A stretch of DNA of 64,000 nucleotides, from assembly GCA_018673485.1 (NCBI GenBank), contig JABHCP010000005.1, positions 102 to 64,101 of the forward strand, read 5' to 3'. Each line of letters starts with the position of its first letter. The first letter of the stretch is position 1. The notes below the pieces were generated by a model. That model saw only the letters and a list, made by a program, of their open reading frames with translations. It was not told where the DNA came from and did no database searches. A program made the translations under genes and the position numbers. Source of the stretch: Candidatus Uhrbacteria bacterium (GTDB lineage: Bacteria > Patescibacteriota > Patescibacteriia > UBA9934). This document shows, one piece after another, positions 1 through 62,825 of the stretch.

Positions 1-2522
1 AAGGTGCGCGTGAGCATAACTTAAAGAATGTTGATCTTGAATTACCCAGAAACAAACTAGTTTGTTTCACCGGATTGTCTGGGTCGGGTAAGTCATCACT
101 TGCCTTTGATACTATTTTTGCTGAAGGACAGCGAAGATATATTGAATCGCTCTCAGCGTACGCTCGTCAGTTCTTGGGGCAGATGCAAAAACCAGATGTT
201 GATGAGATCGAGGGGTTGTCACCTGCAATATCTATCGATCAAAAAGCGCATTCGCGTAATCCGCGATCAACTGTTGCAACGGTGACTGAGATTTACGATT
301 ATCTTCGTGTGCTTTTTGCACGAATCGGTGTTGCTCGTTGTCCAAAGTGTGAGCAATCAATTTCAAAGTTGAGCATTGATGAGATCACGGACCATGTTTT
401 GCACACCATCGGCAACCCCCTCCAGCTCCCCCTTGGGAAGGGGGAGGGACGAAATGGAAAGATGTTGACAGTGATGGCGCCTGTTGTCCGCGGTCGAAAG
501 GGTGAGTATTATCAGCTTTTGTATGATTTTTATAATGCTGGATTTGCAAAGGTGCGCATCAATGGGCAGATGCATAAGCTTAGCGACAAGATAAAGCTTT
601 CTCGGTATAAAAAGCATGAGATTGAAATAGTTATTGATTCAATTCCTGCGACTACTCTAATTAATCCCAATAAAGATCAGCGTCAACGACTTACTGAGGC
701 GCTTGAGATTGCAGTTGATCGAAGCGAAGGGTTGGTGTGCATCCAACATCCCACTAAGAAGGAACAGTTGTATTCCACAGAGTTTAGCTGTGCTGAGTGT
801 GGATTTTCATTTCCTGAAATTGAACCACGATTGTTTTCATTTAACAGCCCGTACGGTGCGTGTCAGTCCTGTGATGGACTTGGGACTATCGAGCTGTTCT
901 CAGAGGATGAGTGTGAGGTTTGTGAAGGAAAGCGATTACGCACTGAGGCGCTTAATGTATTTGTGAATGGAAAAAATATTGCAGAGTTTGTAGGCATGTC
1001 AGTTAAGCAGGCGACAGAGTTTGTTCTCGACATTGAGTTGTCTGATCGGCAAAAAGAGATTGCGAGCACGGTATTAAAAGAGATCGAGAATCGTCTAGCG
1101 TTCATGCTTGATGTTGGGTTGCATTATCTGACTCTCAACCGTCGCGCGGGAACGTTGTCAGGTGGAGAGGCGCAACGTATTCGACTGGCTTCACAAATTG
1201 GATCACGACTCGTGGGCGCTTTGTATGTTTTGGATGAGCCAACTATTGGCCTGCACCAACGAGATAATGATCAACTTATCGCAACGCTCAAAAACTTAAG
1301 AGATTTGGGAAATACAGTTATTGTGGTAGAGCACGATGAAGATACAATTCGTAATTCTGATGTGATGGTGGAAATCGGTCCAGGTGCTGGAGTGCACGGT
1401 GGTGAGATCGTTGCCGTTGGTGAAGTTCCAGAGATTTTTAATGATAAGAAGTCAACAACTGCTGCATATCTTAGAGGGGATAGAAAAATAGAGATTCCAA
1501 AAGAGCGTCGTAAGGTTGGCAGAGATCGGTTAAAAATCGTTGGTGCCAAGGCCAACAATCTAAAGAATTTAAATGTTGAGATCCCGCTGCGTCGACTGGT
1601 GTGTGTGACTGGAGTGTCAGGTTCGGGTAAGTCATCGCTCATGCATGAGGTGATGTACAAGTCGATTGCCAAGAAGTTATATAAGAGCAAGGCAACCCCA
1701 GGAGAGCACAAAGCCGTGATGGGTGTGGAATATATCGATAAGTTGATTCTAATCGATCAGTCGGCCATTGGGCGCACCTCACGGTCCAATCCAGCTACTT
1801 ATACTGGTGCATGGGGGCCAATTCGTGAGTTATATACGGCAACAGAGGAGGCTCGATTTCGTGGTTATAAACCAGGACGTTTTAGCTTTAATGTAAAAGG
1901 TGCGCGTGGCGGTCGATGTTCGAACTGCGAGGGACTTGGTGAGATCGGAATCGAGATGCACTTTTTACCAACTGTGTATGTGCAGTGTGACGTGTGCAAG
2001 GGAAAGCGATTTAATCGCGAGACACTTGAGGTGAAATGGAATGATAAAGATATTTATCAGGTTCTTGATATGACAATAGAAGATGGTCTTGAGTTCTTTA
2101 AAGATATTCCAACAGTTTTTGAAAAGTTTAAGATGTTAAATGAGGTTGGTCTTGGATATTTGAAGATCGGGCAGTCATCCAACACACTTTCCGGTGGCGA
2201 AGCGCAACGTGTTAAGTTAGCATCAGAACTTGCTAAGCGTCAGACTGGAAGAACGATGTATTTGCTTGATGAACCAACAACAGGTTTGCATTTTGAAGAC
2301 GTTAAGCAGTTATTGGAGGTGCTGCATAGATTAGTGGCACGAGGAAACACAGTTTGTGTGATCGAGCATAACCTTGATGTAATTAAAACTGCAGATTGGG
2401 TGATTGACCTGGGTCCCGAGGGTGGAGATGAAGGCGGTACGATAGTAGCCGAGGGAACTCCAGAGGACATTGCTCGCAAGACAGCAAGTTACACCGGTAA
2501 GTATCTTAGAAAAGTACTATGA
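1..2522 (+). CDS. uvrA: excinuclease ABC subunit A (UvrA), 5' end cut by window edge
   Basis: Reading from nt 3 gives GAREHNLKNVDLELPRNKLVCFTGLSGSGKSSLAFDTIFAEGQRRY..., i.e. the N-terminal region extends upstream of the ORF-track start at 75. Two ABC ATPase modules with LSGGE signature motifs and CxxC zinc-finger pairs. A 13-codon in-frame insertion sits at 421-459. Confidence 0.95.
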   Translation, partial: GAREHNLKNVDLELPRNKLVCFTGLSGSGKSSLAFDTIFAEGQRRYIESLSAYARQFLGQMQKPDVDEIEGLSPAISIDQKAHSRNPRSTVATVTEIYDYLRVLFARIGVARCPKCEQSISKLSIDEITDHVLHTIGNPLQLPLGKGEGRNGKMLTVMAPVVRGRKGEYYQLLYDFYNAGFAKVRINGQMHKLSDKIKLSRYKKHEIEIVIDSIPATTLINPNKDQRQRLTEALEIAVDRSEGLVCIQHPTKKEQLYSTEFSCAECGFSFPEIEPRLFSFNSPYGACQSCDGLGTIELFSEDECEVCEGKRLRTEALNVFVNGKNIAEFVGMSVKQATEFVLDIELSDRQKEIASTVLKEIENRLAFMLDVGLHYLTLNRRAGTLSGGEAQRIRLASQIGSRLVGALYVLDEPTIGLHQRDNDQLIATLKNLRDLGNTVIVVEHDEDTIRNSDVMVEIGPGAGVHGGEIVAVGEVPEIFNDKKSTTAAYLRGDRKIEIPKERRKVGRDRLKIVGAKANNLKNLNVEIPLRRLVCVTGVSGSGKSSLMHEVMYKSIAKKLYKSKATPGEHKAVMGVEYIDKLILIDQSAIGRTSRSNPATYTGAWGPIRELYTATEEARFRGYKPGRFSFNVKGARGGRCSNCEGLGEIGIEMHFLPTVYVQCDVCKGKRFNRETLEVKWNDKDIYQVLDMTIEDGLEFFKDIPTVFEKFKMLNEVGLGYLKIGQSSNTLSGGEAQRVKLASELAKRQTGRTMYLLDEPTTGLHFEDVKQLLEVLHRLVARGNTVCVIEHNLDVIKTADWVIDLGPEGGDEGGTIVAEGTPEDIARKTASYTGKYLRKVL
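421..458. repeat. palindromic repeat copy A (ggcaaccccctccagctcccccttgggaagggggaggg), in-frame inside uvrA
   Basis: Exact sequence is shared with copies at 2558-2595 and 34507-34544. It holds the inverted repeat CTCCCCCTT/AAGGGGGAG and encodes IGNPLQLPLGKGEG, aligned where E. coli UvrA has only a few residues (QPE). Confidence 0.8.
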
Positions 2523-3874
2523 TTCCAGAGCGAGTCAAAATACAGAGACACGCGATCGGCAACCCCCTCCAGCTCCCCCTTGGGAAGGGGGAGGGCTTAG
2601 GGCTTCCTGATGCGTCTGGGGTGTACTTGTATTTTGATGAGTACGATCAAATTTTGTATATCGGAAAGGCGACATCGTTAAAAAAACGTGTTGGCTCATA
2701 TTTTAACAAGGCGCATAACAGTCGAATTGCAGAATTGGTTTCAAAGATTGCGCGCATTGATTATATTCAGACTTCAACAGTTATCGAGGCTCTAGTTCTC
2801 GAAGCAAATCAAATCAAGGAGCATAAGCCGCCTTACAATATCATGCTAAAAGATGGTAAGAGCTTTTTGTATTTAGTAATTACCAATGAAGATTTCCCAA
2901 AGCCAATTTTACTGCGTGGACATGAGCTTGAGCGGGAGGGGGTCAGACCATTTCAAAAAGAGTTATCAATTAAGGCGAAGAAGAAGTATATGGCGGTATA
3001 TGGCCCGTATACCAGCGGTGTTTCTCTAAAGCGTGCATTAGATCTTATTAGAAAGGTCATTCCATGGAGTACATGCGAGCCACCAGAAATATCTGGTAAG
3101 CAAAGACCGTGTTTTGATGCGCATATTAAGCGATGTCCGGGAGTTTGCACTGGAAAGATTGATAAGCGAACGTATCGAAAGTACATGAAGCAGCTGATAA
3201 CATTTTTTGAAGGCGGACGAGCGCGACTTTTAGCTCAGCTTAAGCGCGAGATGAAGAAATACGCAAAAGAAGAAAGATTTGAGATGGCTGAGATAGCTCG
3301 ACGGAAAGTTTTTGCGCTTGAACACATTCAAGATATCGCGCTTATCACAAAAGAGGATTTTGAATTGCCGTACTCAGCACCGCAAGAGTTTATGTTTGAT
3401 CTTGATGGTAGGATTGAAGCATATGACATTAGTAATATCTCTGGAACCTCGTCAGTCGGATCGATGGTTGTGTTTGAAGATGGTCAACCGGTCAAGAGTA
3501 AATATCGAAAGTTTAAAATCAAGACAGTCGACGGCCCGAACGATGTTGCGATGATGGAAGAAGTCATTCGACGACGATTAAATCGTGCAAAGAGCGCACC
3601 TAAGGCTTGGGAGTTGCCGCAAGTAATGATCATTGATGGCGGGAAGCCACAGGTCAATCGAGTAAAATTAATTTTGAAGGAAATGAACATCGACATTCCC
3701 GTGATCGGAATCGCAAAAGGATTTGATCGCAAACAAGACCGGCTCGTGTTCGATCGAACTAATATAGAATTATCCAGAGTCGCTGCAGCCGGCAAAGAAC
3801 TTTTTCAAAAAGCCCGCGACGAAGCCCACCGTTTTGCTGTTGCCTATCACCGCAAGCTACGGTCAAAGCGCTAA
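2519..3874 (+). CDS. uvrC: excinuclease ABC subunit C (UvrC), short form
   Basis: GIY-YIG N-terminal domain (GVYLYFDEYDQILYIGKATSLKKRVGSYF) and a C-terminal RNase H-like endonuclease domain. The start overlaps the uvrA stop (ATGA). The same 38-nt repeat is inserted in-frame near the N-terminus. Confidence 0.9.
   Translation: MIPERVKIQRHAIGNPLQLPLGKGEGLGLPDASGVYLYFDEYDQILYIGKATSLKKRVGSYFNKAHNSRIAELVSKIARIDYIQTSTVIEALVLEANQIKEHKPPYNIMLKDGKSFLYLVITNEDFPKPILLRGHELEREGVRPFQKELSIKAKKKYMAVYGPYTSGVSLKRALDLIRKVIPWSTCEPPEISGKQRPCFDAHIKRCPGVCTGKIDKRTYRKYMKQLITFFEGGRARLLAQLKREMKKYAKEERFEMAEIARRKVFALEHIQDIALITKEDFELPYSAPQEFMFDLDGRIEAYDISNISGTSSVGSMVVFEDGQPVKSKYRKFKIKTVDGPNDVAMMEEVIRRRLNRAKSAPKAWELPQVMIIDGGKPQVNRVKLILKEMNIDIPVIGIAKGFDRKQDRLVFDRTNIELSRVAAAGKELFQKARDEAHRFAVAYHRKLRSKR
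2558..2595. repeat. palindromic repeat copy B, in-frame inside the uvrC N-terminus
   Basis: Identical 38 nt to copy A; translated as IGNPLQLPLGKGEG. Confidence 0.8.
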
Positions 3875-9578: not shown

Positions 9579-9653
9579 TGGAGCGGGTAGAGGGAATCGA
9601 ACCCTCATATTCAGCTTGGAAGGCTGACGTAATAGCCATTATACCATACCCGC
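9579..9653 (-). tRNA. tRNA-Gly(TCC)
   Basis: Cloverleaf with anticodon loop cuUCCaa and T-arm ggttcgattcc; CCA encoded. Confidence 0.9.
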
Positions 9654-17988: not shown

Positions 17989-19483
<1,495 letters not shown>

Positions 19484-20730: not shown

Positions 20731-21102
20731 GTGTTTATGAAGTTTAATTACGAACGGATGGATATTACAAGCGATGTACATAAACTTATACGCGAAGTTT
20801 ATCAGCTTTCTTGTATTTTTCCTGATGATGAAAAATTTAATCTTGTATCTCAAGTGAAGCGTGCGTCTACATCCGTACTTTTAAACATTGCAGAGGGTAG
20901 TAGTCGAAGATCGGCCGCAGATTACCGAAGGTTTGTTATAATGGCGATAGGCTCAGCAGTTGAACTAGACGCAGTATTGAAGCTTGCAATTTCAATTGGG
21001 TATTTAACTCAAGATGAATACTTGCGTATCGAGCCAATGATTAAAACTGTATATTTCAAGCTTATTAAATTGCGCAAATCACTCGAAAAGAAAACATTTT
21101 AA
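20731..21102 (+). CDS. four-helix-bundle protein (TIGR02436 family, 23S-rRNA-IVS-type)
   Basis: FKFxxL...FPKxEKFxLxxQxxRAxxSxxxNIAEGxxR...A.GSxxEL signature. Confidence 0.75.
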   Translation: MFMKFNYERMDITSDVHKLIREVYQLSCIFPDDEKFNLVSQVKRASTSVLLNIAEGSSRRSAADYRRFVIMAIGSAVELDAVLKLAISIGYLTQDEYLRIEPMIKTVYFKLIKLRKSLEKKTF

Positions 21103-34506: not shown

Positions 34507-34544
34507 GGCAACCCCCTCCAGCTCCCCCTTGGGAAGGGGGAGGG
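34507..34544. repeat. palindromic repeat copy C (intergenic)
   Basis: Identical 38 nt to copies A and B, immediately upstream of the VKOR -10 box. Confidence 0.8.
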
Positions 34545-34565: not shown

Positions 34566-35009
34566 ATGACATATTTTATTTTCATGATAGTCCTCGCACT
34601 TTTTGGAGTGGGGGAGACCGTTTACCTTATTTCCAAGCGCCGCAAGAATCAAAAGCCAGTGTGTTTAGGCAAAGATGATTGCAACCTAGTCCTTAACAGC
34701 AAGTACAATAAAATCTTTGGTGTTCATAACGATGTTCTTGGATTGGTATTTTATGCATTTGTTTTCATTTCGCATTTAATATTTCTTGCGGATTTTCTAG
34801 CAATTGATTTTGTTCATCAAGCTGATGATTTTGTCAGAATATTGTTATTGGCATTTATATTCGTACTGTTCGTATCATTTATCATGTCTTTGCGATTTGT
34901 CTTTTTGATGGCGTTTAAGGTAAAAGCGTGGTGTCAGTGGTGTGTTGGGTCAGCTGTTACTGTGGGTCTGATGGTGCTTATTGTCTTGTTCTATCTCGGA
35001 ACTGCTTAG
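34566..35009 (+). CDS. vitamin K epoxide reductase (VKOR) family protein
   Basis: Four TM helices; CLGKDDC loop cysteines and CQWC active-site motif. TATAAT sits 9 nt before the ATG (possible leaderless mRNA). Confidence 0.75.
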   Translation: MTYFIFMIVLALFGVGETVYLISKRRKNQKPVCLGKDDCNLVLNSKYNKIFGVHNDVLGLVFYAFVFISHLIFLADFLAIDFVHQADDFVRILLLAFIFVLFVSFIMSLRFVFLMAFKVKAWCQWCVGSAVTVGLMVLIVLFYLGTA

Positions 35010-43621: not shown

Positions 43622-44380
43622 ATGAAAAACAAAGCTATTATTACTAATGCAGAGTTGGAGCTAATCGGTCTTAATCAAAGAGACCTTGATGTCTACCTCG
43701 CACTTGCAAAACTTGGAAGTGCGCCATTGCGTAGAGTTGCAGAGATCTCGAAGATCAGTCGCTCTACTGTGCATGATGTGTTGCGAAGACTTATTGATCT
43801 TGAGCTTGTGAGCTTTGTTGATGGCTCATCTCATCGATATTTCACAGCTGAAGACCCAAAGCAGTTGCGTAGGCTTGTGTCCCGCAAAGAGCTCGCGCTC
43901 AGTGAGGCTCGCGAAAGAATCGAAAAAGCGATTCCTGAGTTTCAAGATATCTTTGGTTCAATGTCGTATCGTCCAACGGTAAGGTATTACGAAGGTCCGC
44001 GCGGGGTAAAGCAAATTCTGCAAGACGTTCTTTCTACAACTAAGCGAACAAAGGCAAAAAAGTATAGAGTATATTCAAGTTCTGGTATTCGTGATCTGAT
44101 CGCGCAAGCATGGCCACGGTATAACGCAACGCGAAAGCAGAATAAAGTGAACGTGCGTGCGATCGCGCTTGGTGCGGGTGGAAAAACCTATGGACTCGAT
44201 CAGCGTAAGTGGCTCACTCAAAAGCAAAGCGCCCCAACTTACATCTTTATCTATGGCGACAAGACCGCATACGTGTCAGCTGACGAAAAGTCACGACTCT
44301 TTGGTGTAATCATCGATGACAAGTCAATCTCGCAAACACAAAAAATGATCTTCGATCATTTGTGGCGGCATCTTGGGTGA
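43622..44380 (+). CDS. TrmB-family HTH transcriptional regulator
   Basis: N-terminal wHTH LRRVAEISKISRSTVHDVLRRL plus TrmB C-terminal domain. Confidence 0.75.
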   Translation: MKNKAIITNAELELIGLNQRDLDVYLALAKLGSAPLRRVAEISKISRSTVHDVLRRLIDLELVSFVDGSSHRYFTAEDPKQLRRLVSRKELALSEARERIEKAIPEFQDIFGSMSYRPTVRYYEGPRGVKQILQDVLSTTKRTKAKKYRVYSSSGIRDLIAQAWPRYNATRKQNKVNVRAIALGAGGKTYGLDQRKWLTQKQSAPTYIFIYGDKTAYVSADEKSRLFGVIIDDKSISQTQKMIFDHLWRHLG

Positions 44381-44390
44381 TGATGAGCTC

Positions 44391-44426
44391 CTCCCCCTTC
44401 CCAAGGGGGAGATAGAGGGGGTTGCC
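44391..44426. repeat. palindromic repeat copy D (reverse orientation, TCTATC variant)
   Basis: Reverse complement ggcaaccccctctatctcccccttgggaagggggag, 11 nt after the TrmB-family gene stop. Confidence 0.75.
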
Positions 44427-50310: not shown

Positions 50311-50385
50311 TGGTGACCCCAGGGGGAATCGAACCCCCATTTCCAGGATGAAAACCTGGCGTCCTAACCATTAGACGATGGGGCC
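50311..50385 (-). tRNA. tRNA-Glu(TTC)
   Basis: ggccccatcgtctaatggttaggacgccaggttTTCatcctgg...ggttcgattccccc...acca. Confidence 0.9.
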
Positions 50386-50634
50386 GGGGTATGTACCTTC
50401 TTTTAATTCCTTACGAACTTTACCAGATCTTTTGATTTGACGTTCTCTTTGAATTGCCTCTTTTTTGTTCTCGTAAACTTCGGAATAAATTAATCTGTAT
50501 GGTACAAACGGCTTCGTTGATCTTGTTTTTCCAGAATTATGCTCAAGCAATCGACGCTCGATATCATCTGTTGAGCCAATATATAGACACTTATTTATCT
50601 CACTTTGTATTACATAAACGAAATATATAATCAT
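50371..50634 (-). CDS. small GIY-YIG nuclease-family protein (YhbQ/UPF0213-like)
   Basis: IIYFVYVIQS...LYIGSTDDIERRLLEHNSG...REKQIK. The stop codon lies inside the tRNA-Glu 5' end. Start at the internal ATG with a GGAGA Shine-Dalgarno. Confidence 0.7.
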   Translation of the reverse strand: MIIYFVYVIQSEINKCLYIGSTDDIERRLLEHNSGKTRSTKPFVPYRLIYSEVYENKKEAIQRERQIKRSGKVRKELKEGTYPGPIV

Positions 50635-50671
50635 ATGCGTCTCCGGCGTAGCCGGACCCGGCTCCGCCGGG

Positions 50672-50698
50672 CTAACCATTAGACGATGGGGCCGGGGT
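50672..50698 (-). repeat. 27-nt duplicate of the tRNA-Glu 5' end (direct repeat partner of 50364-50390)
   Basis: ctaaccattagacgatggggccggggt occurs at both sites. Confidence 0.8.
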
Positions 50699-61653: not shown

Positions 61654-61993
61654 AGGCGACGAAGGATCCCGTAGATATATGCACGACGATTATCATTTCG
61701 TATACATCATGACCAACACAAGGCACACTGTTTTGTATACTGGTTTTACGTCAGACCTAGCGAAGAGAAATTACGAGCATAAAGAAAAGTTGGTTGCGGG
61801 TTTCACGAAAAGATACAATGCGACTGAGCTTGTTTATTTCGAGTGTATAGAAGATCGAGATTCAGCCCTTGCTCGAGAAAAACAGATTAAAGGTGTTAGT
61901 AGAAATAAGAAAGAATTTTTAATTAATTCAAAGAATCCTGATTGGAGAGATTTATCTGATGACATACTGTAACGATCGGGATCCCTCGGCCGT
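61654..61993. mobile_element. ~340-bp unit: GIY-YIG ORF bounded by ~17-bp terminal inverted repeats
   Basis: Left ggcgacgaaggatcccg; right cgggatccctcggcc (reverse-complement match 10 of 11 in the core). Confidence 0.4.
61679..61972 (+). CDS. small GIY-YIG nuclease-family protein (YhbQ-like)
   Basis: YHFVYIMTN...LYTGFTSDLAKRNYEHKE...REKQIKG. The ORF-track start at 61604 (TTG) is also possible. Confidence 0.7.
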   Translation: MHDDYHFVYIMTNTRHTVLYTGFTSDLAKRNYEHKEKLVAGFTKRYNATELVYFECIEDRDSALAREKQIKGVSRNKKEFLINSKNPDWRDLSDDIL

Positions 61994-62028: not shown

Positions 62029-62454
62029 ATGAAACACGTTTCAAAAAGTGAACTTCAGACTAAAGAAATCGCAGCCAAGTTTGCTCGTAAACTTGCGGGT
62101 GGTGAATTTATTGAGTTGGTTGGTGACCTCGGTGCCGGCAAAACGGTTTTTGTACGCGGTATGGTTGAGGCGCTTGGTTCAACGGCACGAGTGAAGAGTC
62201 CGACTTTTACAATTATGAATGAGTACCCAGTGCAAGGTGAGCATGTAACCAAGATTGCGCACTTGGACTTGTATCGGTTTGATGATGAATCGCAGCTTAG
62301 CGCTTTAGAGCTTGAGGATTATATAAATGATAAGACTGTGATTTGTGTTGAGTGGCCTGATATTTTTGGTAAGTCACCATTTGAACCAACACACCGGGTC
62401 ACAATCGAGCACGTTGATGTAGATACTAGGGAGATTATTGTTAATGAATTATAA
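62029..62454 (+). CDS. tsaE: tRNA threonylcarbamoyladenosine biosynthesis protein TsaE
   Basis: P-loop GDLGAGKT; HLDLYR motif. Confidence 0.85.
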   Translation: MKHVSKSELQTKEIAAKFARKLAGGEFIELVGDLGAGKTVFVRGMVEALGSTARVKSPTFTIMNEYPVQGEHVTKIAHLDLYRFDDESQLSALELEDYINDKTVICVEWPDIFGKSPFEPTHRVTIEHVDVDTREIIVNEL

Positions 62455-62464
62455 CCACCCCTAG

Positions 62465-62535
62465 CCCCTCCTTAAAAAGGAGGGGGAATCAAGACTTCGA
62501 CCCTCCCCATTTTTAAGGGGGAGTTGGAGGGGGTT
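62465..62535. repeat. palindromic repeat copy E (divergent variant, two hairpins)
   Basis: cccctccttaaaaaggaggggg and ccctccccatttttaagggggagttggagggggtt; reverse complement aligns to the 38-nt element. Confidence 0.6.
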
Positions 62536-62537
62536 AT

Positions 62538-62825
62538 GTGCATATGAAATCAAACAAACAAAGTTTAAACGAGACATTATTGAACATGGCGGATATTGAC
62601 TCGGAGATTGAGTCGATTGATTTGCATGGAATGAATGTCCACGAGGCAGAGCTTGAGGTTGATCAATTTCTCGCCGACATGCAGTTTCGCAAGGAGCAGG
62701 TGGTAGAGATTGTCTGCGGTGCTGGAACTGGTGTGCTAGCTGACGCGATATGGGAGTTTGTACAAAAGCACCCAATGGTGCAACTTGCCAAATCCAAGGG
62801 TTCCAGAATATTTTGTGTTTTATAA
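62538..62825 (+). CDS. Smr-domain protein
   Basis: IDLHGMNVHEAELEVDQFL...IVCGAGTGVLADAIWEFVQKHPMV. Confidence 0.7.
   Translation: MHMKSNKQSLNETLLNMADIDSEIESIDLHGMNVHEAELEVDQFLADMQFRKEQVVEIVCGAGTGVLADAIWEFVQKHPMVQLAKSKGSRIFCVL

What the first reader, a model, noticed from the sequence alone, without database searches (positions are those of the whole stretch)
421..2595. Palindromic 38-39 nt repeat inserted in-frame into uvrA and uvrC, with three further genomic copies
The sequence ggcaaccccctccagctcccccttgggaagggggaggg occurs identically at 421-458 (inside uvrA), 2558-2595 (the uvrC N-terminus) and 34507-34544 (intergenic). Variant copies occur in reverse orientation at 44391-44426 and 62501-62535. 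In uvrA the copy adds exactly 13 codons (IGNPLQLPLGKGE) at a position where E. coli UvrA has a short loop, and the reading frame is preserved. This resembles the Rickettsia palindromic elements, which create new in-frame peptide segments in housekeeping proteins. The element contains a perfect CTCCCCCTT/AAGGGGGAG hairpin.
Basis: partly seen in the sequence, partly recalled or inferred. Interest (0 to 1): 0.7.

Follow-up and report, generated by a model that had tools for sequence, protein, structure and literature searches.

The report
Triplex-forming repeat inserted in repair genes
A short repeated DNA element sits in frame inside the DNA-repair genes uvrA and uvrC of an uncultured Uhrbacteria (Patescibacteria) genome, and it belongs to the known BoxC/"intrastrand triplex motif" class of bacterial repeats, which had been reported only between genes in E. 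coli.

Summary
The exact 38-mer occurs three times: 411-448 (not 421-458), 2558-2595 and 34507-34544. A 3-mismatch copy lies at 44389-44426. An inverted doublet lies at 62453-62535.

The uvrA and uvrC copies are lineage-specific in-frame insertions. The nearest relative has them at the same sites, with the uvrA copy in a different frame. All other orthologues lack them.

The element is more than a palindrome. Its 9-nt tail is the mirror image of the hairpin's pyrimidine arm, always 3 nt away. On the G-rich strand this reads CTCCCCCTT-ccc-AAGGGGGAG-ctg-GAGGGGGTT, which gives nine canonical purine-motif triads.

This architecture matches E. coli BoxC/PIT/TMECO (Holder 2015). It covaries across at least 9 stem variants and many phyla. 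About a quarter of the Patescibacteria copies lie in frame inside housekeeping genes.

Orthologous copies are 91-100% identical where flanking DNA is 70-86% identical.

The comparison with Rickettsia elements holds only by analogy. In-frame REPs in uvrA were already known. The mobiliser and in vivo triplex formation remain unknown.

Verdict: a new variant of a known kind, of moderate interest.

The parts
411..448 (-). Unit 1, inside uvrA. Read on the G-rich (-) strand as class II: Py arm 434-426, loop 437-435... In + strand coordinates: GGC 411-413, third block (mirror tail) AACCCCCTC 414-422, 3-nt loop CAG 423-425, pyrimidine arm CTCCCCCTT 426-434, loop GGG 435-437, purine arm AAGGGGGAG 438-446.
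   Evidence: Exact 38-mer. 9/9 purine-motif triads on the - strand. In frame in uvrA, encoding GNPLQLPLGKGE.
2558..2595 (-). Unit 2, inside uvrC, 39 nt after its start codon. Third block 2561-2569, loop 2570-2572, pyrimidine arm 2573-2581, loop 2582-2584, purine arm 2585-2593. The whole insertion relative to orthologues is 48 nt, 2555-2602.
34507..34544 (-). Unit 3, intergenic, 21 nt upstream of the start of a VKOR-family gene (34566-35009, +).
44389..44426 (+). Unit 4, a variant with ATA as the second loop. The G-rich class II strand is the + strand: CTCCCCCTT 44391-44399, CCC, AAGGGGGAG 44403-44411, ATA, GAGGGGGTT 44415-44423, GCC. It lies 9 nt after the stop codon of a TrmB-like regulator gene (43622-44380).
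62453..62485 (-). Unit 5, the B-type left half of the inverted doublet: AACCACCCC-TAG-CCCCTCCTT-AAA-AAGGAGGGG. Its first bases overlap the TAA stop codon of tsaE (62452-62454).
   Evidence: 9/9 triads, with T*A-T at the position I first read as a mismatch.
62503..62535 (+). Unit 6, the A-type right half of the doublet: CTCCCCATT-TTT-AAGGGGGAG-TTG-GAGGGGGTT. It has one Watson-Crick mismatch in the stem. Its GGAGGGGG (62526-62533) lies 10 nt upstream of the ATG (62544) of an Smr-domain gene and could serve as its ribosome-binding site.
1..2522 (+). uvrA (5' end lies outside the window; codons are in phase with base 3). The insertion sits in the loop between helix 125-137 and strand 154-164 of the window-encoded part, at the start of the UvrB-binding domain.
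   Evidence: AlphaFold model: pLDDT 55 for residues 141-150, against 80-88 on either side.
2519..3874 (+). uvrC (451 aa). Its start codon overlaps the uvrA stop codon (ATGA). The insertion lies in the N-terminal tail, just before the first strand of the GIY-YIG domain.

Best explanation
The repeat is a G/C-rich intrastrand triplex motif element. This is the class first described as BoxC, then as PIT elements, then as TMECO in E. coli.

**Architecture (shown).** Each unit has three 9-nt blocks on one strand, separated by 3-nt loops:
- a pyrimidine block,
- its Watson-Crick purine partner,
- a third block that is the mirror image of the purine block.

A single G-rich DNA strand can therefore fold into a hairpin with the third block laid antiparallel in the major groove, using G*G-C, A*A-T and T*A-T triads.

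**Distribution (shown).** Units occur singly or as inverted A+B pairs. They are dispersed over the genome and found in many bacterial phyla.

**In this Uhrbacteria lineage (shown).** Two copies landed in permissive surface loops of UvrA and UvrC before the split from the nearest sampled relative.

**Why the insertions survive (partly inferred).**
- The C/G-rich sequence has no stop codon in any of the six frames.
- The net insertion is a multiple of three.
- It encodes a Pro/Gly/Leu-rich flexible loop.
- It is therefore most likely translated as part of the protein (inferred).

**What maintains the sequence (inferred).** The nucleotide sequence, not the peptide, is what is conserved. The cause is either selection on the DNA fold or conversion or replacement from other copies.

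**Spread (inferred).** The element most likely spreads as a non-autonomous element through a single-stranded DNA stage recognised by a factor supplied in trans. That factor is unidentified.
For: **Architecture.** Five of the six window units give 9/9 canonical purine-motif triads with a 3-nt second loop. The sixth has one stem mismatch.

**Covariation.**
- In 627 distinct hairpin records from about 215 loci, 264 give 9/9 triads at a second loop of exactly 3 nt.
- At any other loop length from 0 to 7 the count is at most 4. With random upstream sequence it is 0.075.
- The position of the T in the stem is mirrored in the tail for at least 9 different stem patterns.
- 267 of 341 units are mirror-consistent, against a permutation mean of 79 and a maximum of 102.
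- Opposite a stem T the tail carries T (244), A (61) or G (1). This is exactly the A*A-T / T*A-T freedom of the purine motif on the G strand. It would be a mismatch in a pyrimidine-motif or RNA triplex.

**Same design as TMECO.** The E. coli element is CCCTCNCCC-N3-6-GGGNGAGGG-N3-GGGNGAGGG, forms A+B inverted pairs, has loops less conserved than stems, and forms a stable triplex in vitro by CD and NMR (PMC4666352). I checked the BoxC consensus in 5409 of 5426 E. coli genomes.

**Direct link to TMECO.** TMECO-pattern units occur in the same non-proteobacterial genomes, and one sits in the same UvrA loop of another Patescibacterium (L123 3445-3479).

**Insertion and age.**
- Every UvrC orthologue among 59 whose N-terminus covers the site lacks the 16 residues.
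- Among 120 UvrA orthologues, only the window protein and its nearest relative carry this variant.
- The relative L118 has it at both sites, in uvrA in another frame (AATPSHSPLERGRE).

**DNA-level conservation.** Unit identities at orthologous sites are 30/33, 31/33, 33/33, 33/33 and 30/33, where flanks are 70-86% identical. Differences are confined to the two loops.

**General in-frame colonisation.** Pfam-confirmed hosts include Mur ligases, FtsK, Mfd, SecA, LeuRS, DnaX, RadA, MiaA and Thr synthase.

**Loop location.** The insertion maps to a gap in solved UvrA and to a low-confidence loop in the model.
Against: - Triplex formation is inferred from sequence only. For E. coli TMECO it was shown in vitro but not in vivo (PMC4666352).
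- No transposase, target-site duplication or clean empty/filled pair was found, so mobility rests on distribution alone.
- The window sequence does not match the TMECO sequence pattern itself. Common descent with BoxC, as opposed to convergence on a triplex-compatible design, is therefore not shown.
- Translation of the insert is inferred from frame conservation, not observed.
Confidence: 0.75

Rival explanations
1. It is an ordinary REP/REPIN- or RPE-type palindromic element: a hairpin recognised and moved by a REP-associated tyrosine (Y1/HUH) transposase. The upstream tail would then be only a recognition 'foot'.
For: - It is a 20-40-nt palindrome and forms inverted doublets like REPINs.
- REPs are documented in frame inside uvrA, uvrB, Mfd-type and replication genes, and RPE-4 and RPE-6 are CGTC-type REPs (PMC3733652).
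- A GACG (the complement of CGTC) precedes two of the four A-type copies.
Against: - No GTAG or CGTC tetranucleotide adjoins the stem.
- The 9-position mirror covariation with a fixed 3-nt spacer is not a feature of REPs, and hairpin recognition does not explain it.
- No Y1 transposase appears among the genes called on about two thirds of the window.
- No gene family is enriched next to 117 loci.
Confidence: 0.12
2. The copies have been recruited as RNA-level regulators: translation attenuators, mRNA stabilisers or donors of ribosome-binding sites. That role would be what conserves them.
For: - The end of the doublet supplies GGAGGGGG 10 nt upstream of the smr ATG.
- Doublet ends abut ATG start codons in L035 and L036.
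- The uvrC copy lies 39 nt after a start codon that is translationally coupled to uvrA.
- B units contain AAGGAGG paired with CCTCCTT.
Against: - Intragenic copies occur in both orientations at similar frequency, about 22 same-strand versus 22 opposite.
- The T/A alternation in the third block fits the purine motif, which does not form in RNA (PMC4666352).
- PIT elements showed no promoter or terminator activity in E. coli (PMC4666352).
- No Rfam family matches.
Confidence: 0.08
3. The segment is a selected protein feature, a conserved linker or interaction peptide of UvrA and UvrC. The nucleotide identity would be secondary.
For: The same peptide, IGNPLQLPLGKGEG, appears in two proteins of one pathway.
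Against: - The same element at the same uvrA site is read in a different frame in the nearest relative.
- Identical DNA also lies between genes.
- Orthologues lack it.
- The DNA is more conserved than the surrounding coding sequence.
- The model places it in a low-confidence loop.
Confidence: 0.03
4. The copies arose independently by local slippage or hairpin-templated mutation at G/C-rich sites, or they are an assembly artefact. They would then not be copies of one element.
For: - Triplex and hairpin motifs promote slippage.
- L091 shows a 12-nt internal duplication, and L159/L167 show a 45-nt tandem array.
Against: - Three 38/38 identical copies lie at unlinked loci.
- The same 21-nt core is found across phyla.
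- The same sequence appears in five independent assemblies.
Confidence: 0.02

Closest known systems
BoxC / PIT elements / TMECO intrastrand triplex motifs of E. coli and other bacteria (Hoyne et al. 2000, as cited in Holder et al. 2015; Holder et al. 2015, PMC4666352)
   Same: - The three-block design: 9-nt pyrimidine block, 3-6-nt loop, 9-nt purine block, 3-nt loop, 9-nt reverse-Hoogsteen block.
- The purine-motif triad rule.
- A second loop that is often TTA.
- Inverted pairs made of two unit types.
- Stems more conserved than loops.
- Dozens of dispersed copies and no linked transposase.
- TMECO-pattern units co-occur with this variant in Patescibacteria, Planctomycetes and Gallionellaceae loci.
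   Different: - The stem sequence is CTCCCCCTT/AAGGGGGAG rather than CCCTCNCCC/GGGNGAGGG, so the published pattern does not match the window.
- The host is an ultra-small Patescibacteria genome.
- In E. coli K-12 all 23 copies are intergenic. Here 2 of 6 are in frame inside genes, as are about a quarter of 74 related Patescibacteria copies.
Intragenic REPs (GTAG- and CGTC-tagged) of Di Nocera et al. 2013 (PMC3733652)
   Same: Short palindromic repeats inserted in frame in housekeeping genes, with many hosts in nucleotide excision repair (uvrA, uvrB), replication and tRNA metabolism. They occur as single units and dimers and encode 10-30 extra residues.
   Different: Those families are defined by a GTAG or CGTC tag beside the stem, and for GTAG by RAYT transposases. 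This element has neither, and it has a mirror-repeat third block instead.
Rickettsia palindromic elements (RPE; Ogata et al. 2000, from my own knowledge and as cited in PMC3733652)
   Same: Selfish palindromic DNA that adds in-frame peptide segments to essential proteins at surface-exposed positions.
   Different: RPE-1 is about 100-150 bp and confined to Rickettsia. This element is 33-48 nt, spans many phyla, and carries the triplex design. I found no evidence of sequence relatedness, but I did not test it directly.

Membership tests
G/C-rich class II intrastrand triplex motif repeats (BoxC/PIT/TMECO) | Three consecutive blocks on one strand: pyrimidine stem, loop of 3-6 nt, complementary purine stem, loop of about 3 nt, third purine-rich block | tested here: met
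   9/3/9/3/9 in five window units (414-446, 2561-2593, 34510-34542, 62453-62485 on the - strand; 44391-44423 on the + strand). The sixth unit (62503-62535) has one stem mismatch.
G/C-rich class II intrastrand triplex motif repeats (BoxC/PIT/TMECO) | The third block, antiparallel to the purine stem, forms G*G-C, A*A-T or T*A-T triads | tested here: met
   9/9 triads in five units. Family-wide, 264 records give 9/9 at a 3-nt loop, at most 4 at other loop lengths, and 0.075 by chance. Covariation holds over at least 9 stem patterns.
G/C-rich class II intrastrand triplex motif repeats (BoxC/PIT/TMECO) | Match to the published TMECO sequence pattern CCCTCNCCC N3-6 GGGNGAGGG N3 GGGNGAGGG | tested here: not met
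   No match in the window. Matches exist in related loci L008, L059, L060, L091, L102, L123 (inside uvrA) and L207 (an A+B pair), and in the E. coli controls.
G/C-rich class II intrastrand triplex motif repeats (BoxC/PIT/TMECO) | Inverted pairs that combine two unit types | tested here: met
   Window doublet 62453-62535. 42 of 128 hits in other genomes are A+B doublets of 66-117 nt, most of them 69-86 nt.
G/C-rich class II intrastrand triplex motif repeats (BoxC/PIT/TMECO) | The isolated G-rich strand forms a stable triplex (CD, NMR, melting) | not testable with these tools
   Shown for TMECO only (PMC4666352). ViennaRNA does not model triplexes.
G/C-rich class II intrastrand triplex motif repeats (BoxC/PIT/TMECO) | Intergenic location (all 23 copies in E. 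coli K-12) | tested here: not met
   The uvrA and uvrC copies are intragenic and in frame. About 20 of 74 related units lie in long ORFs, of which I scanned 10 against Pfam and 8 matched known families.
REP / REPIN with RAYT | Conserved GT[AG]G (or CGTC) tetranucleotide adjoining the hairpin foot | tested here: not met
   Read directly from the sequence: the stem is preceded by YAR and a C-rich tail. GACG occurs 5' of the tail in only two of the four A-type copies.
REP / REPIN with RAYT | A cognate Y1 (HUH) transposase gene flanked by the repeats | tested here: inconclusive
   None appears among the genes called with Pfam on about two thirds of the window. No family is enriched near 117 loci. 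Whole genomes could not be searched.
Rickettsia palindromic elements (RPE) | In-frame insertion into conserved protein genes, creating a new peptide segment | tested here: met
Rickettsia palindromic elements (RPE) | Element of roughly 100-150 bp with RPE consensus sequence, in Rickettsia | tested here: not met
   The unit is 33-38 nt and the insertion is at most 48 nt. The host is Candidatus Uhrbacteria. Sequence comparison with RPE consensus sequences was not done.
MITE (transposase-derived miniature element) | Terminal inverted repeats plus a target-site duplication | tested here: inconclusive
   Doublets have inverted ends AACC...GGTT. No duplication is visible, and no clean empty site was recovered.

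The most novel reading that the evidence does not exclude
These units are a cross-phylum family of mobile elements whose recognised and selected form is a folded single-stranded DNA triplex.

- In Patescibacteria they routinely colonise the coding sequence of essential genes, DNA-repair genes among them.
- There the DNA fold itself, not the peptide, is kept by selection.
- They would move by a so far unknown enzyme or replication-linked mechanism that reads a triplex rather than a hairpin.
- The copies inside uvrA, uvrC, mfd and radA could couple a non-B DNA structure to the genes that process such structures.
Probability: 0.2. Interest if true: 0.8.

Novelty: new variant of a known kind. Interest (0 to 1): 0.55.

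Why it matters
**What it connects.** Two bodies of work had not been joined:
- the BoxC/PIT/TMECO 'intrastrand triplex' repeats, studied in E. coli as intergenic curiosities of unknown function;
- the in-frame palindromic insertions known from Rickettsia RPEs and from REPs.

**What it adds.**
- Natural three-way covariation data, from hundreds of units and at least 9 stem variants across many phyla, indicating that the triplex-compatible design is under constraint. In vitro work on one E. coli sequence could not show this.
- The T/A alternation points to the DNA purine motif rather than to RNA.
- Such units can persist inside essential genes for long periods while staying nearly invariant. This raises a testable question: what maintains them?

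**For annotation.** Peptides such as TPSSSPLGRGR, LPLPKGELEGVA and GNPLQLPLGKGE in Patescibacteria proteins are repeat-derived, not conserved motifs.

Tried and rejected
- **Neighbour-gene enrichment around 117 loci.** All-against-all BLASTP found no recurrent family and no transposase.
- **Genes between distant inverted unit pairs.** These were ordinary housekeeping genes.
- **Rfam.** Neither gathering nor permissive thresholds gave a family, only sub-threshold generic long-hairpin hits.
- **Literature search by sequence strings and by derived peptides.** Nothing relevant turned up.
- **attC-site reading.** Rejected because the ends read AAC-YYYY...RRRR-GTT, not RYYYAAC...GTTRRRY.
- **Pyrimidine-motif (C+*G-C) triplex or RNA triplex.** This was my first model. 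I replaced it with the purine-motif model on the G strand, because A opposite T-A pairs and the terminal AA fit only the latter.
- **i-motif and G-quadruplex readings.** Rejected on strand polarity and on the number of G runs.
- **Search for empty sites among all fetched loci.** Only filled or strongly diverged sites were found.
- **E. coli adk-hemH BoxC locus as a proxy for insertion boundaries.** The BoxC-bearing 155-nt segment is replaced by unrelated sequence of about 50 nt, which says nothing about target duplication.
- **Phage or plasmid origin.** Only 9 viral contigs matched, with one genuine unit. Plasmid hits were intergenic doublets in Moraxella nar operons.
- **Small GIY-YIG genes and a PF05635 gene in the window as possible mobilisers.** There is no positional association with the units.

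Full report
**1. Observation**

- The 38-mer GGCAACCCCCTCCAGCTCCCCCTTGGGAAGGGGGAGGG occurs exactly at 411-448, 2558-2595 and 34507-34544 on the + strand. A 3-mismatch copy lies at 44389-44426 on the - strand. None is expected by chance.
- A scan for C/T-armed perfect hairpins finds five in the window, against 0-1 in shuffles.
- The fifth site is an inverted doublet. A B-type unit lies at 62453-62485. A degenerate A-type unit lies at 62503-62535.
- Both genic copies read IGNPLQLPLGKGEG in frame: uvrA (in phase with base 3, ending at 2522) and uvrC (2519-3874).
- Independent assemblies of the same organism carry identical sequence (L119-L121, L188, L175). It is therefore not an assembly artefact.
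- The organism is annotated as Candidatus Uhrbacteria.

**2. The insertions are lineage-specific but old**

- *UvrC.* Among 59 UvrC orthologues, every one whose N-terminus covers the site lacks a 16-residue (48-nt) segment.
- *UvrA.* Among 120 UvrA orthologues, only the window protein and its nearest relative (P0122, 83% identical) carry this element. The loop that hosts it varies in length throughout Patescibacteria.
- *The nearest relative.* Contig L118 has the element at the same position in uvrC, in frame (GNPLRLPLGKGEG). It also has it at the same position in uvrA, shifted by two bases and read in another frame (AATPSHSPLERGRE). Extra downstream bases restore the phase.
- *Closest empty sites.* These are in L122, where UvrA is 81% identical.
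- *DNA-level conservation.* Flanking uvrA and uvrC DNA is about 70-72% identical between the window and L118. The element is 35/38 and 36/38 identical, and all differences fall in the two loops. Three further orthologous pairs from other genomes show the same pattern: units 30-33/33 against flanks of 76-86%.
- *Inference.* The DNA sequence, not the peptide, is being maintained.

**3. Position in the proteins**

- Against solved UvrA structures the insertion is a 14-residue gap between a helix and the next strand.
- From established knowledge of Bacillus and Thermotoga UvrA, this is the start of the UvrB-binding domain.
- An AlphaFold model of the first 366 encoded residues, built on a 36-sequence alignment, gives pLDDT of about 55 for residues 141-150. 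The flanking helix 125-137 and strand 154-164 score 80-88.
- In UvrC the insert lies in the N-terminal tail, just before the first strand of the GIY-YIG domain.

**4. The element is not confined to this genome**

Hosts include Gallionellaceae and other Nitrosomonadales, Omnitrophota, Patescibacteria and Gracilibacteria, cyanobacteria, Planctomycetes, Poribacteria, Ignavibacteria, Bacteroidetes and Deltaproteobacteria.
- In 42 of 128 hits the unit is followed, after a short spacer, by a second, inverted unit of a slightly different type. The loops of the two units are reverse complements. Most of these doublets are 69-86 nt long (full range 66-117 nt).
- Doublets also lie between narG and narH on Moraxella plasmids.
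- Only one genuine unit was found in 2.9 million viral contigs.
- No gene family is enriched next to the units, and no transposase lies between distant inverted pairs.

**5. In-frame colonisation of genes is common in this family**

- In the cross-phylum sample, 18 of 123 units lie in long open frames. Pfam confirms real hosts with domains on both sides: an MmeI-type methyltransferase, a Mur ligase, FtsK (twice, at the same site), Mfd, a class I aminoacyl-tRNA synthetase, a type I restriction R subunit and SecA.
- A metagenome scan for the Uhrbacteria-type variant gave 74 distinct units, of which about 20 lie in long frames. I scanned ten of the host frames against Pfam, and eight matched known families: a Mur ligase, threonine synthase, LeuRS, MiaA, DnaX, a MiaB-like enzyme, SecA and RadA.
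- All six reading frames are used. The most frequent peptides are TPSSSPLGRGR and LPLPKGELEGVA.
- The window variant, with CAG as linker, has no stop codon in any frame. The commoner TAA and TAG linkers close two frames. Being stop-free is largely a matter of composition: 31% of composition-matched shuffles are stop-free, against 4.5% of random 38-mers from the window.
- The same UvrA loop carries other variants of the superfamily in other Patescibacteria, in the opposite orientation (L123, L124).

**6. What the element is**

- *The mirror rule.* The 7-9 bases upstream of the hairpin are the mirror image of the hairpin's pyrimidine arm, at a spacing of exactly 3 nt. There are 154 perfect 7/7 matches at spacing 3, against at most 5 at any other spacing.
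- *Covariation.* The position of the T in the stem moves among variants (CTCCCCC, CCTCCCC, CCCCTCC, CCCTCTC, CCCCTCT, CCTTCCC and others), and the non-C position in the tail moves with it. 267 of 341 units are consistent, against a permutation mean of 79 and a maximum of 102. Without the dominant type the figures are 123 of 185, against 23.
- *T or A opposite T.* Opposite a stem T the tail carries T (244), A (61) or G (1).
- *Reading on the G-rich strand.* The unit is pyrimidine block, loop, purine block, 3-nt loop, then a third block antiparallel to the purine block. The observed pairings are exactly the purine-motif triads G*G-C, A*A-T and T*A-T.
- *Counts with that rule.* 264 of 627 strand-specific hairpin records give 9/9 triads at a 3-nt loop. 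Each hairpin is counted on both strands. At most 4 do so at any other loop length, and 0.075 with random upstream sequence.
- *In the window.* Five of the six units are 9/9.

**7. Comparison with what is known**

- *BoxC / PIT / TMECO.* The design matches the 'class II intrastrand triplex motif' of Holder et al. 2015 (PMC4666352).
  - It was earlier called BoxC, and PIT elements (Hoyne et al., as cited there).
  - Its E. coli form, TMECO, is CCCTCNCCC-N3-6-GGGNGAGGG-N3-GGGNGAGGG, with TTA or CCG as the second loop.
  - It forms inverted pairs of type A plus type B.
  - It forms a stable triplex in vitro by CD and NMR.
  - It showed no demonstrated triplex in vivo, no promoter or terminator activity, and no link to mobile elements.
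  - It is always intergenic in K-12 and is associated with local sequence instability.
- *My checks.* I confirmed the BoxC consensus in 5409 of 5426 complete E. coli genomes, with a median of 16 places per genome, and read one example.
- *Pattern match.* The window units do not match the TMECO sequence pattern. TMECO-pattern units do occur in the same kinds of genome: Andersenbacteria, Gemmatales and Sideroxydans loci, an A+B pair in L207, and one in frame in the UvrA loop of L123.
- *RNA versus DNA.* Holder et al. state that purine-motif triplexes do not form in RNA. If that holds, the constraint acts on single-stranded DNA.
- *Intragenic REPs.* Di Nocera et al. 2013 (PMC3733652) documented GTAG- and CGTC-tagged REPs in frame inside genes, many of them in nucleotide excision repair (uvrA, uvrB) and replication. 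They equated RPE-4 and RPE-6 with CGTC REPs. In-frame palindromic repeats in uvrA are therefore a known phenomenon. This element lacks their defining tags, and no RAYT was seen.

**8. Mechanism**

- *Shown:* the three-block architecture and its covariation; dispersed identical copies; lineage-specific presence; frame preservation; DNA-level conservation above that of the flanks.
- *Inferred:* the G-rich strand folds into a triplex when single-stranded; the element spreads as a non-autonomous unit with help supplied in trans; the inserts are translated as flexible loops.
- *Unknown:* the mobilising activity, the target rule, and whether conservation comes from selection on the fold or from conversion or replacement by other copies.
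- *On conversion.* Three copies in the window are identical in both loops, while the two orthologous copies in L118 differ from each other. This favours some homogenisation within a genome but does not prove it.

**9. Verdict**

- The Rickettsia comparison is an analogy only.
- The element belongs by architecture to the BoxC/PIT/TMECO class and represents a new variant of it. It has a different stem sequence, a Patescibacteria host, and frequent in-frame residence in essential genes.
- Interest is moderate.
- What is new: the covariation evidence for a DNA triplex, and the persistence of such units inside repair genes.
- What is not new: the class itself, and the existence of in-frame repeats in uvrA.

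Noticed in passing
window 20731-21102 (+): A gene for a PF05635 protein (the four-helix-bundle '23S rRNA intervening-sequence protein') sits between a KH-domain gene and trmD, inside the conserved rpsP-KH-trmD cluster. It looks like an inserted selfish gene.
   Followed up: no
window 50371-50679 (-) and about 61709-61972 (+): Two small stand-alone GIY-YIG nuclease genes of 87-102 aa. One lies just upstream of tsaE and the doublet. I saw no positional link to the repeat units elsewhere.
   Followed up: partly
window 17993-19483 (-): A complete 16S rRNA gene with no 23S or 5S gene anywhere in the 64 kb, which indicates an unlinked rRNA operon. Five tRNA genes are scattered at 9582, 13160, 13319, 13501 and 50314.
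   Followed up: no
window 62526-62546: The G-rich end of the doublet (GGAGGGGG) lies 10 nt upstream of the ATG of an Smr-domain gene, and the other end of the doublet overlaps the tsaE stop codon. Doublet ends also abut ATG start codons in L035 and L036. The repeat may have been recruited as a ribosome-binding site.
   Followed up: partly
L159 6876-7010 and L167 6129-6253: A tandem array of at least three 45-nt copies (GGCAACCCCCTCTAGCTCCCCCTTGGGAAGGGGGAGGACCGGATC) inside an open frame. The period is a multiple of three, and the array encodes repeated ATPSSSPLGRGRTGS.
   Followed up: no
L025 2520-2680; L016 and L110: In Gallionella the A+B doublet sits at the centre of a larger palindromic element (AACCCAAATAATCCATTAG...CTAATGGACAATCTGGGTT). 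In L016 and L110 another short palindromic sequence is inserted into the loop of the B unit. These are nested insertions into hairpin loops.
   Followed up: no
L208 versus L216; L034 versus L107: At orthologous sites the doublet is present in opposite orientation, with an A unit aligned to a B unit. This suggests inversion of the palindromic doublet in place.
   Followed up: no
L222 (E. coli K-12 adk-hemH spacer) versus L223: About half of 5426 E. coli genomes carry a 155-nt BoxC-containing segment between adk and hemH. In the rest it is replaced by about 50 nt of unrelated sequence. This is a segment replacement, not a clean insertion.
   Followed up: partly
intragenic hosts in L001-L215: Roughly half of the confirmed host genes act on DNA: uvrA, uvrC, mfd, radA, dnaX, ftsK (twice), two methyltransferases and a type I R subunit. 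This echoes the repair-gene bias reported for REPs and for DNA uptake sequences. I did not test it against a length-weighted null.
   Followed up: no
window 2519-3874: UvrC here and in all close orthologues is only about 435-450 aa. It matches GIY-YIG, UvrC_M and the RNase H-like domain. The window protein lacks the UVR-motif match that most orthologues show.
   Followed up: no
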